This document shows positions 21,711 to 26,411 of a stretch of DNA of 37,126 nucleotides, one piece after another. The stretch is from Escherichia virus Mu_3F6. Positions within the stretch are counted from its first letter, which is position 1, and each line of letters begins with the position of its first letter. Location of the stretch: the sequence record LR595867.1; one strand, written 5' to 3'. Both the position numbers and the translations under genes were made by a program. The notes beneath the pieces are model-generated. The model did not search any database. It was not told the origin of the DNA and saw only the letters and a list, made by a program, of their open reading frames with translations.

Positions 21711-21900
21711 ACCCGCAGCGGGAAAAGCCATCCGTGACCCGCTCACGATGAAATTACTGGCTCCGGAGGGAGAAGAAAAGCCCCGTAACAGTTTCTGGAT
21801 ACGTCGCCTTGCAGCCGGTGATGTGGTTGAAGTCGGGAACACCGAAAACACGGCGGATGATACCGACGCTGCGCCGAAAAAACGGAGTAAATCGAAATGA
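21694..21900 (+). CDS. small structural-region protein (68 aa)
   Basis: Precedes the sheath gene. Confidence 0.5.
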
Positions 21901-23384
21901 GCGATATTTCATTTAACGCGATCCCGTCAGATGTTCGCGTTCCTCTGACGTATATCGAATTTGATAACAGTAATGCCGTCAGCGGAACACCGGCACCCCG
22001 TCAGCGCGTGCTGATGTTCGGGCAAAGCGGAAGTAAAGCCAGTGCGGCACCAAACGTGCCTGTCCGTATCCGTTCCGGCTCACAGGCCAGTGCGGCGTTT
22101 GGTCAGGGTTCCATGCTGGCACTGATGGCAGATGCATTCCTGAACGCTAACCGCGTGGCGGAGCTGTGGTGTATTCCGCAGGGGAACGGCACCGGTAATG
22201 CTGCTGTCGGTGAAATTTCACTGTCAGGAACGGCAGGCGAAAACGGCTCGCTTGTGACTTACATTGCCGGTCAGCGACTGGCGGTATCTGTCGCAGCAGG
22301 TGCAACGGGAGCGGCGCTGGCTGACCTGCTGGTTGCCCGAATCAAAGGCCAGCCGGATTTACCGGTGACGGCAGAAGTTCGCGCAGACAGCGGAGATGAT
22401 GACACCCATGCAGATGTGGTTCTGAGTGCAAAATTTACGGGTGCATTATCTGCCGTGGACGTGCGCTGGAACTATTACGCGGGTGAAACCACCCCTTACG
22501 GGATTATCACGGCATTCAAAGCCGCCTCCGGGAAAAATGGCAACCCGGATATCAGCGCAAGTATCGCGGGAATGGGCGATCTGCAATACAAATATATTGT
22601 GATGCCCTATACCGATGAACCGAACCTGAATCTGTTACGCACTGAATTGCAGGAACGCTGGGGACCGGTCAATCAGGCTGATGGTTTTGCCGTGACAGTG
22701 CTGTCCGGCACGTATGGGGATATTTCTACGTTTGGTGTCAGTCGTAATGACCATCTGATCTCCTGTATGGGGATTGCCGGTGCACCGGAACCGTCATATC
22801 TGTACGCCGCCACACTGTGTGCCGTTGCCAGCCAGGCGCTTTCCATCGACCCGGCGCGTCCGCTCCAGACGCTGACGTTGCCCGGAAGAATGCCGCCTGC
22901 GGTGGGGGATCGTTTTACCTGGTCAGAACGTAATGCGCTGCTGTTTGACGGCATCTCCACGTTTAACGTGAATGATGGTGGTGAAATGCAGATTGAACGC
23001 ATGATCACGATGTACCGCACAAACAAGTACGGTGACAGTGATCCGTCTTATCTGAACGTGAATACCATCGCCACGCTGAGTTATCTGCGTTATTCGCTGC
23101 GAACCCGCATCACGCAGAAATTCCCGAACTACAAGCTGGCAAGTGATGGCACCCGCTTTGCCACCGGTCAGGCCGTGGTGACGCCATCCGTGATCAAAAC
23201 GGAACTGCTGGCACTGTTTGAAGAATGGGAAAACGCCGGACTGGTCGAGGATTTCGACACGTTCAAAGAGGAGCTGTATGTGGCACGTAACAAGGACGAC
23301 AAAGACCGTCTTGATGTGCTGTGCGGCCCGAATCTGATTAACCAGTTCCGCATTTTCGCGGCACAAGTTCAGTTCATTCTGTAA
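21897..23384 (+). CDS. L: contractile tail sheath protein L (495 aa)
   Basis: Size and position; recognised as Mu sheath. Confidence 0.9.
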
Positions 23385-23393
23385 GGAGCATTT

Positions 23394-23750
23394 ATGGCTG
23401 GAAATCAGCGTCAGGGGGTGGCGTTCATCCGTGTCAATGGCATGGAGCTTGAAACGATGGAAGGGGCCTCCTTCACACCTTCCGGCATCACCCGTGAAGA
23501 AGTGACCGGCTCGCGGGTTTATGGCTGGAAAGGTAAACCACGTGCCGCAAAGCTGGAATGCAAAATTCCGGGCGGTGGTGATATCGGTCTGGATGAAATC
23601 ATCGGCTGGGAAAATATCACGGCAGAGTTTCAGGCAGACACCGGTGAAACCTGGATGATGGCGAATGCCTGGCAGGCAGATGAACCGAAAAACGACGGCG
23701 GCGAAATTTCGCTGGTACTGATGGCAAAACAAAGCAAACGCATTGCATAA
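23394..23750 (+). CDS. M: tail tube protein M (118 aa)
   Basis: Small protein directly after sheath. Confidence 0.85.
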   Translation: MAGNQRQGVAFIRVNGMELETMEGASFTPSGITREEVTGSRVYGWKGKPRAAKLECKIPGGGDIGLDEIIGWENITAEFQADTGETWMMANAWQADEPKNDGGEISLVLMAKQSKRIA

Positions 23751-23759
23751 GGGGAAACA

Positions 23760-24194
23760 ATGGACGAAATGAATTTAGGTCCTGAAGCACAGGAACTGCA
23801 TGACAGCATTGTGGCAGAAATTCAGTCCGGCGTGCTGAAACTGAAAGACGGCCTGCCGTTCGGCACCGGTGACGAGACTGAAATGCAGTATGACGTGACA
23901 CTGCGTGAACTGACCGCAGGCGATATGATTGATGCACAGGCGGCTGCTGAAAAGCTGGTAATGAGCAAGGAAGGTCCGGTGCTGGTCAGTTCCCCGTCCC
24001 GGATGGGACTGGAAATGCTGCGCCGACAGATTGCCAGCGTGGGCTGCATCAAAGGCCCGTTGTCGATGGCGCTGATTCGTAAGCTGTCTGTCGATGACTT
24101 CCAGCGTCTGTCGCTGGCCACAGAAATGTACGACATGGCTGTGGCGGCATCGCTGACGCAAGAACGGGGGCGAGTGGCTGCGGTGCCGGAATGA
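23760..24194 (+). CDS. tail assembly chaperone (144 aa)
   Basis: Acidic protein between tube and tape measure; an alternate-frame ORF overlaps its 3' end and runs to just before the tape measure start. Confidence 0.6.
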   Translation: MDEMNLGPEAQELHDSIVAEIQSGVLKLKDGLPFGTGDETEMQYDVTLRELTAGDMIDAQAAAEKLVMSKEGPVLVSSPSRMGLEMLRRQIASVGCIKGPLSMALIRKLSVDDFQRLSLATEMYDMAVAASLTQERGRVAAVPE

Positions 24195-24338
24195 TATTGA
24201 GAAAGCGGCGACAGCGATTGGCGTTATTCTGAAAAGTGGCCCGGAATGGGCCTTATCCCTTCCGCTGTCCCGCTTTTTCCGGCACTGCCAGCAGGCTAAA
24301 ACCCTCTCTCAATATCACCGTTAAATCAGGAAATCTCT

Positions 24339-26411
24339 ATGACCGGGAAACGCTTAAAGGCGTCTGTCATTATTGATCTTAATGGCAATCTTTCCCGGCG
24401 TTCCCGCCAGTATTCGAACCAGATAAACGCCCTGTCCCGTAGCGGACAAAGTTCCCTTCGTGCCCTGCGTATGGAGGTTGTGCGCGTTTCTGGTGCCATT
24501 GACAGAATGGGTTCTCTGTCAACCCGTACATTCCGAATGCTGTCAGCCGGGGCGCTGGGTATCGCTGGCGTGGGTTACACCGCCAATAAACTGTTTATTG
24601 GTGCAGCCGCCCAGCGTGAGCAGCAGATCATCGCCATGAACTCGCTGTATCACGGCGATAAGGTCAGAGCGCAGGCCATGATGGCCTGGGCGAAGCAGAA
24701 CGCGAAGGACACCACGTGGGGGCTGAGTGGTGTTCTTGATGAGATCCGTTCGTCGAAAGGCTTCGGCATGACGGATGAACAGACGAAACAGTTCATCACC
24801 ATGTTGCAGGATCAGGGGGCCATGCACGGCTGGGATTTACCAACTGCACAGGGTGCCTCACTGCAACTGAAACAGATGTTTGCCCGCCAGCAAATCACAG
24901 CGGCGGATGCCAACCTGCTGACCGGTTACGGTATTAACGTTTACCAGACGCTGGCGGATGCACTGGGTAAAGACGTTAAGGATATCCGCAAACAAGGTGA
25001 AAAAGGCAAGCTGGGTCTGAAATCCATTCTGACGGTATTCAGAACGCTGTCAGAACAGTCAAAAGGTGCACAGGCCAGTGCGATGAACTCCTGGGACGGG
25101 ATGTTCGCCCAGATGGAAGCTAACCTGCTTGAATTTCGCATAAAGGTGGCAAACAGCGGCCCCTTTGAAGAAATCAAGAACGAGATGCGCCGGGTGCTTA
25201 ACTGGCACGACATGGCGGATAAATCCGGGGAACTTGACGCACTGGCAGAAAACATTGGTCAGAAATTTCTGACCACGTTCAGAACGGTAAAAATCGCGGC
25301 GCAGGAATTATGGCGCTGGCTGAAACCGGGTAAAGATGCGCTGGCATGGGTTGACCAGAATATTGTCAGCCTGAAAAAACTGGCTGCTGTTCTGGTGTCT
25401 GTCTGGCTTGCCAATAAAGCCCTGAGAGCAGGCTGGGCCGTGGCAAAACCCTCATGGCAGGTTGCCAGTTATCCGTTTAAAACCGGGCGTCGTATGTGGC
25501 GCTGGATGCGAAACCGCAAACGTGGGCAGGCAGGTCTGCCGGTCCCGGATGCCATGACGTCTGAGACGCTGTTGCAGGGTATCGGCATTCAGCGTGTGTT
25601 TGTCATCAACTGGCCCCGTGGATTTGGTGGCTACGGGAGTGGCGGCGGTCGTCGCGGACGGAGCGGCGGAAGAATGGCCCCGCTGTTACCCCGCCAGCCG
25701 TTATTGCTGTCCGGGCCACAGCCGCTGGCATTACCTGCACCACGCCCTGTACTGGCATTACCCCCACCCGGCGTACCGGTAACAGCACGGCCTGCACCAT
25801 TACCTTTACCCGGTAAATCCGGTCTTCTGAGCAGGCTTGCAGGCAGTGCTGCCGGGCAACTGGTTACGGGAACGGTCGGAAAGCTGGCTGATGCCGGGCG
25901 TGCTGTTGGCGGGTGGTTTTCCGGTATCGGAAACAAACTTGCAGGCAGTGCGATCGGTCGGGTTGTGACAAAAGGTGCCGGGGCGCTGGGCTGGATGGGG
26001 AAAGGTGCCGGTCGTGCGTTGTCACGTCTGGGTGGCCCGGTAATGGGGGCACTCCAGCTTGCCCCCGTCCTGATGGATGAGCAGGCGTCAACCCATGAAA
26101 AAGCAGGTGCAATTGGCAGTACAGCCGGTGCATGGCTCGGCGGTGCCGTTGGCAGCCTTGCCGGACCGCTGGGTACGGTTGCCGGTGCCACGCTGGGCAG
26201 TGTCGCCGGGGAGTATCTGGGCGGTTTTGTAACCGACCTGTATCAGAAATGGACGGCCCCGGATAAGGAACCGCAGGAACAAAAAGTGAATGCGGAAGCC
26301 TCGCTGCGCGTCGAACTTGGCGAGGGGTTACGTCTGGCCAGTTCCCGTGTCACCGAGGATGGTATGGGGCTGAATATTTACGCGGGCGATAACTACATTA
26401 CAGGCTGGTAA
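24339..26411 (+). CDS. tail tape measure protein (690 aa)
   Basis: Long protein with a Pro-rich segment and Gly/Ala-rich repeats (LAGSAAG..., LAGSAIG...); position after chaperone. Confidence 0.9.

What the first reader, a model, noticed from the sequence alone, without database searches (positions are those of the whole stretch)
24157..24338. Alternate-frame ORF bridging tail chaperone and tape measure gene (possible +1/-2 frameshift product)
The chaperone gene (23760..24194) and the tape measure gene (24339..) are separated by 145 bp with no plus-strand ORF in the chaperone frame. The +1 frame is open from 24157 (35 nt before the chaperone stop) to a TAA at 24322-24324, 15 nt before the tape measure ATG. 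It contains no ATG or GTG, so it could only be expressed by frameshifting from the chaperone frame. The overlap contains a G-run (GAACGGGGGCGAG, 24162-24174). This mirrors the conserved chaperone frameshift architecture of tailed phages, with an unusual shift direction.
Basis: partly seen in the sequence, partly recalled or inferred. Interest (0 to 1): 0.45.

Follow-up and report, generated by a model that had tools for sequence, protein, structure and literature searches.

The report
Known phage Mu −2 chaperone frameshift

Summary
The chaperone gene (23760..24194) is overlapped by a start-less +1/−2-frame ORF, open from 24157 to the TAA at 24322-24324. The overlap contains CGG GGG CGA (24165-24173). 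The window is a Mu/D108-type myophage genome (97-99% identity). GenBank AF083977.1 annotates exactly this feature as Mu_56, "verified -2 translational frameshift in PMID 15469818". The 188-aa −2 product built from the window is residue-for-residue Swiss-Prot P0DJY4 (FS-gp41 of Mu). Reviews cite it as the classic natural −2 frameshift, at about 2.2% efficiency.

Comparative work here supports the function independently. 106 of 107 Mu-like loci, down to about 38% chaperone identity, keep a G-run plus CGA in phase. They also keep a 45-51-aa extension in the +1 frame. That extension has pN/pS 0.33 and no stops, against 1.0 and 2.5 with 31-40 stops in the other two frames. Synonymous sites at the slip site are frozen in the pattern a backward slip requires.

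Independent initiation, a chance ORF and a 3' RNA stimulator are not supported.

Minor new points:
- two curated entries disagree on the junction residue (Gly or Arg);
- fused four-G alleles exist;
- non-Mu clades carry an upstream Shine-Dalgarno-like element.

Novelty: already known. Interest is low.

The parts
21897..23384 (+). Tail sheath gene (Mu gp39/L), upstream context
   Evidence: Pfam Phage_sheath_1, Phage_sheath_1C and Phage_sheath_domII; annotated as tail sheath in the Mu and D108 records.
23394..23750 (+). Tail tube gene (Mu gp40/M), immediately upstream of the chaperone
   Evidence: Pfam Tail_tube PF10618, E=3.1e-35; annotated as tail tube in the Mu record.
23760..24194 (+). Tail assembly chaperone gene 41 (analogue of lambda G and P2 E): the 144-aa product of standard decoding
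   Evidence: ORF and translation. Pfam Gp41_Mu PF23746 at 119.5 bits against a cut-off of 27; Phage_TAC_7 at 24.7 bits against 25. PHROG 508, tail assembly chaperone. Corresponds to Mu_41 in AF083977.1.
24165..24173 (+). Slip site CGG GGG CGA, written in the chaperone frame. The tRNA-Gly on GGG (24168-24170) can re-pair perfectly on GGG (24166-24168), two bases back.
   Evidence: Sequence. Identical in Mu, D108 and PhiR68_1. A G-run plus CGA is present in phase in 106 of 107 related loci. Synonymous sites are frozen relative to the genes' own codon usage.
24169..24324 (+). −2-frame extension (GGC GAG TGG ... TAA): 51 codons plus the stop, giving the 188-aa fusion FS-gp41 (Mu_56) when joined to 23760..24170
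   Evidence: Translation. The fusion is an exact match to Swiss-Prot P0DJY4. The extension alone matches phrog_12783 at E=5e-30. pN/pS is 0.33 with no stops in this frame only. It forms a family-wide alignment with a conserved LPL(S/R)R(L/F) core.
24328..24331 (+). Ribosome binding site (AGGA) of the tape measure gene
   Evidence: Position transferred from the RBS feature of Mu_42 in AF083977.1 and read in the window sequence.
24339..26411 (+). Tape measure protein gene (Mu gp42), downstream partner of the chaperone
   Evidence: ORF of 690 aa; Pfam TMP_3 PF20155, E=8.3e-16; annotated as tape measure protein in the Mu record.

Best explanation
This is the programmed −2 ribosomal frameshift of the phage Mu tail assembly chaperone gene 41.

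Most ribosomes translate 23760..24194 and make the 144-aa chaperone gp41. A small fraction slip back two nucleotides on CGG GGG CGA (24165-24173); the published figure for Mu is about 2.2% in vivo. The peptidyl-tRNA-Gly on GGG re-pairs with the GGG two bases upstream. Translation then continues in the new frame to the TAA at 24322-24324. This gives a 188-aa fusion (FS-gp41, Mu_56) that carries a 51-residue C-terminal extension.

By analogy with lambda gpG/gpGT, the shared N-terminal part is expected to coat the tape measure protein. The extension is expected to recruit the tail tube protein. The fixed low ratio of long to short product would be what tail assembly requires.

Shown here: the anatomy, identity with Mu, family-wide conservation of the site and the frame, and purifying selection on the extension.
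Taken from the literature and database annotation: that the product is made, and that the shift is −2.
Inferred: the division of labour between the two domains in Mu, and whether the Arg codon CGA acts as a slow A-site codon or takes part in tandem slippage.
For: - The frames, stops, lack of any start codon and the G-run are as described.
- The window is 97-99% identical to Mu, D108 and PhiR68_1 in this region and genome-wide to D108-type phages.
- The slip region is identical to Mu's. The three substitutions inside the extension are all third-position and synonymous in the +1 frame.
- The window's −2 model product is exactly Swiss-Prot P0DJY4, 'Probable tail assembly protein FS-gp41'.
[quoted passage not shown] PMC3498833 gives about 2.2% efficiency for the Mu gpGT analogue. 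A 2025 preprint measured 14% for a 10-mer Mu site in a purified cell-free system.
- The gene order sheath, tube, chaperone, tape measure is confirmed.
- The 107 related loci were retrieved with peptide patterns unrelated to the slip site. Of these, 106 carry G4-7 plus CGA near the 3' end. Of 83 distinct sequences, 77 have exactly xGG GGG CGA in phase. The frame-0 tail varies from 2 to 23 codons, while the +1 extension stays at 45-51 aa.
- In the part beyond the frame-0 stop, pN/pS is 0.33 with 0 stops in the +1 frame. The other frames give 1.01 and 2.49 with 40 and 31 stops.
- Codon −2 ends in G in 80 of 80 sequences even where the amino acid changes. All 77 Arg codons there are NGG, against 12% NGG among Arg codons elsewhere in these genes. 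GGG is used in 80 of 80 (background 19%) and CGA in 80 of 80 (background 10%). Fixed G's 5' of the P-site codon are needed for a backward slip, not a forward one.
Against: - Nothing in the window contradicts the explanation.
- I could not read the primary paper. The experimental proof of the product and of the −2 direction therefore rests on the GenBank note, Swiss-Prot and secondary citations.
- The two curated entries disagree on the junction residue...QERG-G-EWL in P0DJY4 and ...QERG-R-EWL in UIW09302.1. The exact slippage event (P-site only, or tandem P and A sites) is therefore not settled by what I could access.
- No significant RNA structure follows the site (z=-0.25), and the Mu clade has no upstream SD-like element. 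What sets the efficiency is therefore unexplained.
- The related sequences share ancestry, so the counts of frozen sites are not independent observations.
- The roles of the two domains in Mu are transferred from lambda, not shown.
Confidence: 0.92

Rival explanations
1. The same extension is reached by a +1 slip instead: the tRNA-Gly moves from GGG 24168-24170 forward to GGC 24169-24171. This would give a 187-aa product, ...QERGEWL..., one glycine shorter.
For: +1 and −2 lead into the same frame, and the reporter assay in the 2025 preprint cannot tell them apart. Some relatives have only four G's in phase: TCG GGG CGA in L010/L065 and CAG GGG CGA in L063/L064. There a −2 slip would re-pair on only 2 of 3 bases, so a +1 slip is about as plausible in those variants.
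Against: The curated annotation and the reviews state that −2 was verified for Mu. Both database products are 188 aa, and the 187-aa sequence is not on record for Mu. The G's upstream of the P-site codon are frozen in 80 of 80 sequences, which a forward slip does not need.
Confidence: 0.04
2. The +1 ORF is a separate small gene translated from its own non-canonical start. D108 annotates it this way as gene 41.5, starting at the CTG that corresponds to window 24178.
For: D108 records list a 48-aa '41.5' protein. The extension has its own PHROG family. The G-run lies 7 nt upstream of the CTG and could resemble a ribosome binding site.
Against: The window's ORF has no ATG, GTG or TTG. Across 79 distinct relatives the first start codon in this frame lies anywhere from −26 to +28 codons around the slip site. 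It has an SD-like sequence in only 4 of the 75 sequences that have one, and four sequences have no start codon at all. The CTG is not conserved in other clades, where the equivalent codon is for example CTT or ATG at other positions. What is conserved is the in-phase slip site.
Confidence: 0.02
3. RNA polymerase slips on the G5 run. Adding two G's or dropping one in a fraction of transcripts would let standard translation make the fusion.
For: An mRNA with two extra G's would encode exactly ...QERGGEWL..., so protein data alone cannot exclude it. Genomic alleles with four G's exist, which shows the run is prone to indels at the DNA or sequencing level.
Against: From my own knowledge, known bacterial transcriptional slippage needs longer runs, typically 7 or more A or T; five G's is short. 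The invariant CGA after the run fits an A-site codon effect on the ribosome better than polymerase slippage. The literature classifies the event as ribosomal.
Confidence: 0.015
4. The open frame is a chance feature of non-coding spacer DNA between the chaperone and the tape measure gene, and has no product.
For: From my own arithmetic, a 55-codon open stretch arises by chance about 7% of the time in sequence of this composition.
Against: The frame is open, with an alignable peptide, in essentially all relatives down to about 38% chaperone identity. It has pN/pS 0.33 and no stops, while the other frames accumulate 31-40 stops.
Confidence: 0.005

Closest known systems
Phage Mu gp41 / FS-gp41 (Mu_41 and Mu_56; Swiss-Prot P0DJY4; Xu, Hendrix and Duda 2004, PMID 15469818)
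   Same: Everything that could be compared matches: identical slip region, identical 144-aa and 188-aa products, the same flanking genes and the same ORF end.
   Different: Only silent nucleotide differences: 24158 upstream of the site, 24255, 24258 and 24261 at third positions of the extension, and 24335 in the spacer. This is the same element in a sister genome.
Phage lambda gpG / gpGT
   Same: A chaperone gene sits between the major tail or tube gene and the tape measure gene. A start-less overlapping ORF is reached by a low-efficiency programmed frameshift near the 3' end. A fixed ratio of short to long product is needed for tail assembly, and neither product is in the virion (summary in PMC5009743).
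   Different: Lambda shifts −1 by tandem slippage, on G GGA AAG from my own knowledge; Mu shifts −2 on a G-run. Lambda is a siphovirus and Mu is a contractile-tailed phage. No sequence similarity was detected, and Pfam assigns the Mu protein to Gp41_Mu.
Phage P2 gpE / gpE+E'
   Same: A myophage with the same order: sheath (FI), tube (FII), E, E+E', tape measure (T). The N-terminal domains both touch Pfam Phage_TAC_7, 'E, or 41 or 14'. The extensions are of similar length (51 and 56 aa) and align in register around a P-x-E...(L/M)(S/P)L..(L/F) core.
   Different: P2 uses a −1 shift on TTTTTTG. The extension homology is weak (hhalign E=0.0044, probability 8%). None of 20 Mu-like extensions hits Pfam Phage_P2_GpE. 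The Mu chaperone scores 24.7 bits against a cut-off of 25 for Phage_TAC_7.
Other natural −2 frameshifts (arterivirus nsp2TF; Trichomonas vaginalis virus 1)
   Same: A backward shift of two nucleotides gives access to the +1 frame and adds one residue compared with a +1 shift (PMC5009743).
   Different: These are eukaryotic RNA viruses with different slip sequences. In arteriviruses a protein-dependent 3' stimulator acts and the efficiency is about 20%. They have no relation to tail assembly.

Membership tests
Tailed-phage tail assembly chaperone frameshift (G/GT type, Xu et al. 2004) | The chaperone gene lies between the major tail or tube gene and the tape measure gene | tested here: met
   Tube 23394..23750 (PF10618), chaperone 23760..24194, tape measure 24339..26411 (PF20155); the same layout is annotated in Mu.
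Tailed-phage tail assembly chaperone frameshift (G/GT type, Xu et al. 2004) | A second ORF without its own start overlaps the 3' end of the chaperone gene in another frame and ends just before the tape measure gene | tested here: met
   The +1 frame is open from 24157 to 24324 with no ATG, GTG or TTG. It overlaps the chaperone gene by 35 nt and ends 14 nt before the tape measure ATG.
Tailed-phage tail assembly chaperone frameshift (G/GT type, Xu et al. 2004) | A slippery sequence lies inside the overlap and allows tRNA re-pairing in the new frame | tested here: met
   CGG GGG CGA at 24165-24173: GGG re-pairs perfectly two bases back. The site is identical to the Mu site, conserved family-wide, and has frozen synonymous positions.
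Tailed-phage tail assembly chaperone frameshift (G/GT type, Xu et al. 2004) | The frameshift product is actually made, at a low fixed ratio | not testable with these tools
   Reported for Mu, whose sequence is identical here: GenBank note 'verified -2 translational frameshift'; about 2.2% efficiency (PMC3498833); 14% for the 10-mer in a cell-free system. The primary paper is not held.
Tailed-phage tail assembly chaperone frameshift (G/GT type, Xu et al. 2004) | The extension is maintained as a protein by selection | tested here: met
   pN/pS is 0.33 with 0 stops in the +1 frame, against 1.01 and 2.49 with 40 and 31 stops in the other frames. The peptides align across clades.
Canonical −1 tandem-slippage site (X XXY YYZ) | A heptamer that allows a −1 shift into an extended −1 frame | tested here: not met
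   The −1 frame closes 12 codons after the chaperone stop in the window, and is short in most relatives. The conserved extension is in the +1/−2 frame.
Pfam PF23746 Gp41_Mu | Score above the gathering threshold | tested here: met
   119.5 bits against a cut-off of 27, covering residues 28-138.
Pfam PF10109 Phage_TAC_7 (P2 E, Mu 41, gp14) | Score above the gathering threshold | tested here: inconclusive
   24.7 bits against a cut-off of 25, E=2.5e-5. Several homologues carry a precomputed PF10109 hit. hhalign of the Mu-like profile against P2 E alone finds nothing.
Pfam PF06528 Phage_P2_GpE (the E' extension of P2) | The extension matches the family model | tested here: not met
   0 of 20 diverse Mu-like extensions match at E<=1, whereas P2 E+E' matches at 1.2e-21. 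The profile-to-sequence alignment is in register but weak.
Mu FS-gp41 itself (Swiss-Prot P0DJY4) | Sequence identity of the predicted fusion product | tested here: met
   The exact-sequence look-up finds the window's 188-aa −2 model as P0DJY4.

The most novel reading that the evidence does not exclude
The element in the window is not new, but the family-wide comparison suggests features that may not have been described.

1. The nonamer xGG GGG CGA, including the rare Arg codon CGA, is essentially invariant across Mu-like prophages of Enterobacterales, Vibrionales, Aeromonas, Shewanella, Marinomonas, Rheinheimera and Bilophila. This points to an A-site role for CGA, as a slow codon or as a partner in tandem −2 slippage that keeps 5 of 6 base pairs.
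2. All the non-Mu clades except Bilophila and L012, but not Mu itself, carry a GGAG/GAGG element 11-14 nt upstream of the P-site codon. The spacing is like that of the dnaX stimulator, so it could be a 5' stimulator of backward slippage.
3. Variants with four G's in phase may have switched to +1.
Probability: 0.3. Interest if true: 0.3.

Novelty: already known. Interest (0 to 1): 0.1.

Why it matters
The Mu gene 41 frameshift is the classic bacterial example of programmed −2 ribosomal frameshifting. It is also part of the evidence that tailed phages universally make two overlapping chaperone products in a fixed ratio to build tails of the right length. Finding it here adds nothing new biologically.

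It does have two practical uses:
- It confirms that the scan can recover genuine recoding signals from raw sequence.
- It flags an annotation gap. Apart from the re-annotated AF083977.1, the close Mu-like records whose annotation I read omit the frameshift product (PhiR68_1) or list the extension as a stand-alone ORF (D108). The other ten list no second chaperone feature under the match. The two curated Mu entries disagree on the junction residue.

Tried and rejected
- **Primary paper.** PMID 15469818 is not held. A full-text search for the DNA string CGGGGGCGA returned only unrelated papers. The SPP1 paper and the Atkins review gave no junction details. Several literature searches failed on term syntax.
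- **3' stimulatory RNA structure.** The 100 nt from 24171 fold no better than shuffled sequence (z=-0.25). I did not pursue covariation.
- **Pfam assignment of the extension.** None was found.
- **Homology of the extension to P2 E'.** The alignment is in register but statistically weak, so I do not claim it.
- **Homology of the chaperone profile to P2 E by hhalign.** Nothing was found.
- **Independent initiation of the +1 ORF.** Rejected.
- **Chance ORF.** Rejected.
- **In-frame fused proteins P0001, P0002 and P0006 as evidence of a naturally unshifted gene.** The DNA of the comparable fused loci (L007/L056, L009) shows a run of four G's. L007 also has a second indel. I read these as mutant alleles or homopolymer errors, not a different architecture.
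- **Structure prediction.** Not run, because it would not test any of the open points.

Full report
**1. The observation**

- The chaperone ORF runs 23760..24194 (144 aa, TGA at 24192-24194).
- In the +1 frame a TGA lies at 24154-24156. The frame is then open from 24157 for 55 sense codons to the TAA at 24322-24324.
- That frame contains no ATG, GTG or TTG.
- The overlap with the chaperone frame is 35 nt and contains GAACGGGGGCGAG (24162-24174). In the chaperone frame this reads GAA CGG GGG CGA G.
- The tape measure ATG is at 24339. The spacer is therefore 144 nt, and 14 nt separate the TAA from the ATG.

An open stretch of this length is not improbable in itself. From my own arithmetic it has about a 7% chance. 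The case rests on comparison.

**2. What the window is**

The region 23394-24500 is 95-99% identical to Escherichia phages PhiR68_1, D108 and Mu, to Shigella phage SfMu, and to several Yersinia Mu-like phages. The last 25 kb of the window match D108-type genomes at about 98% over about 90% of their length.

The flanking genes are tail sheath, tail tube, tape measure protein and the DNA-circulation protein (Pfam). The chaperone matches Pfam Gp41_Mu at 119.5 bits. It falls just under the cut-off of Phage_TAC_7, the family of P2 E and Mu 41.

**3. It is already annotated and published**

- The current Mu GenBank record AF083977.1 carries two CDS that start at the same ATG. One is Mu_41 (the 144-aa chaperone). 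Mu_56 spans exactly what corresponds to window 23760..24324.
- D108 lists the extension as a stand-alone "41.5" that starts at a CTG, equivalent to window 24178.
- PhiR68_1 does not annotate the extension at all, and the other close records list no second chaperone feature under the match.
- The slip region is identical in the window, Mu, D108 and PhiR68_1.
- The window's chaperone and model fusion products are 100% identical to Mu's.
- An exact-sequence look-up finds the window's 188-aa −2 model as Swiss-Prot P0DJY4, [quoted passage not shown].
- The review by Atkins et al. [quoted passage not shown] It cites Xu, Hendrix and Duda 2004 and Baranov et al. 2006.
- Firth et al. 2012 (PMC3498833) call it the only natural programmed −2 case known at that time, with about 2.2% efficiency.
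- The KS10 genome paper repeats the point.
- A 2025 preprint used the Mu site as its −2 positive control and measured 14% in a purified cell-free system.

I could not read the primary paper.

**4. Independent comparative evidence**

I retrieved 107 loci that encode gp41 relatives: 27 from bacterial genomes and 80 from viral contigs. The peptide patterns used come from the middle of the protein, so retrieval did not depend on the slip site. The relatives range from 100% down to about 38% identity. They include prophages of Kluyvera, Erwinia, Edwardsiella, Pluralibacter, Vibrio, Photobacterium, Aeromonas, Shewanella, Marinomonas, Rheinheimera and Bilophila.

*The site.* Every locus that includes the 3' end of the gene (106 of 107) has a G-run followed by CGA there. 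Among 83 distinct sequences, 77 read xGG GGG CGA in phase with the chaperone frame.

*The two tails.* The frame-0 tail after the site varies from 2 to 23 codons. The +1-frame extension is always 45-51 aa. The extensions align as one family with a conserved LPL(S/R)R(L/F) core. The −1 frame is usually closed within a few codons.

*Selection.* I used 28 distinct enterobacterial sequences and only the part of the extension beyond the frame-0 stop:

| Frame | pN/pS | Stops in the set |
|---|---|---|
| +1 (extension) | 0.33 | 0 |
| Shifted by one more base | 1.01 | 40 |
| Chaperone frame continued | 2.49 | 31 |

The three differences between the window and Mu inside the extension (24255, 24258, 24261) are all synonymous third positions of the +1 frame.

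**5. Direction and mechanism**

The peptidyl-tRNA-Gly on GGG (24168-24170) can re-pair perfectly on GGG (24166-24168), two bases back. A forward slip would land on GGC.

Codon choice at the site is frozen far beyond what the proteins need:

| Codon (chaperone frame) | At the site | Same codon class elsewhere in these genes |
|---|---|---|
| −2 | ends in G in 80 of 80, even where it codes for Arg, Gly, Ser or Gln; all 77 Arg codons are NGG | 12% of Arg codons are NGG |
| −1 | GGG in 80 of 80 | 19% of Gly codons |
| 0 | CGA in 80 of 80 | 10% of Arg codons |

Fixed G's 5' of the P-site codon are what a backward slip needs. This agrees with the published −2 assignment. The sequences share ancestry, so these counts are not independent observations.

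The invariant CGA is partly explained by the +1 frame, where GA starts a conserved Glu or Asp codon. Its first base is less easily explained. That base could change to A without altering either protein, yet it never does. CGA may therefore act as a slowly decoded A-site codon, or take part in tandem slippage. After a −2 move, tRNA-Arg with anticodon ICG would still pair with GGC at two of three positions. This step is inference.

No RNA structure better than shuffled controls follows the site (z=-0.25). The Mu clade has no SD-like element upstream.

**6. Function**

In lambda, gpG and the G part of gpGT bind the tape measure protein. The T part binds the major tail protein. The roughly 30:1 ratio is needed for assembly, and neither protein is in the virion (summary in PMC5009743).

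For Mu I infer the same division of labour from the gene position and architecture. It was not tested here.

**7. Rivals**

- *Independent initiation, as D108's 41.5 implies.* Not supported. Start codons in the +1 frame lie anywhere from −26 to +28 codons around the site. They have an SD-like sequence in 4 of 75 cases, and are absent in the window and three other distinct sequences.
- *A chance ORF.* Excluded.
- *A +1 slip.* It would give a 187-aa product that is not on record for Mu, and it would not need the upstream G's. It remains possible for the in-phase four-G variants (L010/L065, L063/L064).
- *Transcriptional slippage on five G's.* It cannot be excluded from sequence alone. It is unlikely given the short run and the conserved A-site codon.

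**8. Comparison with known systems**

The element is the Mu gp41/FS-gp41 frameshift itself, in a sister genome. It works like lambda G/GT and P2 E/E+E' but shifts −2 instead of −1.

P2 has the same gene order and a −1 site on TTTTTTG. The Mu-like extension profile aligns with P2 E' in the expected register, but only weakly (E=0.0044, probability 8%). No Mu-like extension reaches Pfam Phage_P2_GpE. Homology of the extensions is therefore unproven.

**9. Verdict**

Novelty is nil: the feature is published, annotated in GenBank and present in Swiss-Prot.

The by-products of this check are small. They are the Gly/Arg disagreement at the junction between two curated entries, fused four-G alleles in several assemblies, and an SD-like element 11-14 nt upstream of the site in the non-Mu clades other than Bilophila and L012.

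Noticed in passing
window 24168-24173 (junction of the frameshift product): Two curated entries for the same Mu product disagree at residue 138. Swiss-Prot P0DJY4 reads ...QERG-G-EWL..., meaning GGC is read after the slip. GenBank UIW09302.1 (Mu_56) reads ...QERG-R-EWL..., meaning CGA is decoded and the shift follows. Both are 188 aa and both are −2, but they imply different slippage events.
   Followed up: partly
L007/L056 (Kluyvera genomosp. 3, CP022114.1) about 2883; L009 (Erwinia tracheiphila ICMP 5845) about 2901; proteins P0001, P0002, P0006, P0047, P0057: In-frame fused chaperone-extension genes exist in several assemblies. In the loci I could read (L007/L056, L009) the G-run has four G's instead of five. 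L007 also carries a second indel inside the extension. Other copies in the same species have the normal five G's (P0019 for Erwinia; the 159-aa members of the Serratia cluster for P0006). These are either homopolymer sequencing errors or dead prophage alleles.
   Followed up: partly
L013-L029 and L067-L110, 11-14 nt upstream of the GGG codon of the slip site; absent at window 24140-24165: Apart from the Bilophila clade and L012, the non-Mu clades carry a Shine-Dalgarno-like GGAG, GAGG or AGGAG 11-14 nt 5' of the P-site codon (47 of 83 distinct sequences). The Glu codon there is always GAG. The Mu/D108/Kluyvera/Erwinia clade, including the window, has none. The Bilophila clade has GAGGGAG further upstream. 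The spacing resembles the dnaX −1 stimulator, so this could be a 5' stimulator of backward slippage. It could also simply encode a conserved (K/A)E(A/L)L.
   Followed up: partly
L010/L065 (Edwardsiella anguillarum) and L063/L064, slip site: These variants have only four G's, still in phase (TCG GGG CGA and CAG GGG CGA), and the extension is still in the +1 frame. A −2 slip would re-pair on only 2 of 3 bases here, so these lineages might use +1 instead. L008 has seven G's (CAG GGG GGG CGA).
   Followed up: no
window 24178-24324, equivalent to D108 gene 41.5 (GQ357916.1 24019..24165): D108 annotates the extension as a free-standing 48-aa protein translated from a CTG, written as Met. Apart from AF083977.1, the close Mu-like records list no joined frameshift product: PhiR68_1's feature table lacks one, and NC_000929, SfMu and the Yersinia phages show no second chaperone feature under the match. 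This is an annotation gap rather than biology.
   Followed up: yes
L107 (IMGVR_UViG_2718217984_000001), extension: The extension is cut to 33 aa and diverges after ...GLQLA, compared with its near-identical relatives L108-L110. It looks like a frameshift mutation or a sequencing error inside the extension. L011 (Apirhabdus) has a premature frame-0 stop before the slip site, like a pseudogene.
   Followed up: no
window 24214-24309 compared with P2 E' (L112 986-1158): The Mu-like extension profile aligns in register with the P2 E' extension...AIGVIL--GPEWALSLPLSRFFRHCQQA against ...VAVIFHWPPSELYPMSLTELITWREKA. The score is weak (E=0.0044, probability 8%). This hints that the −2 extension of Mu and the −1 extension of P2 share ancestry despite different shift directions.
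   Followed up: partly
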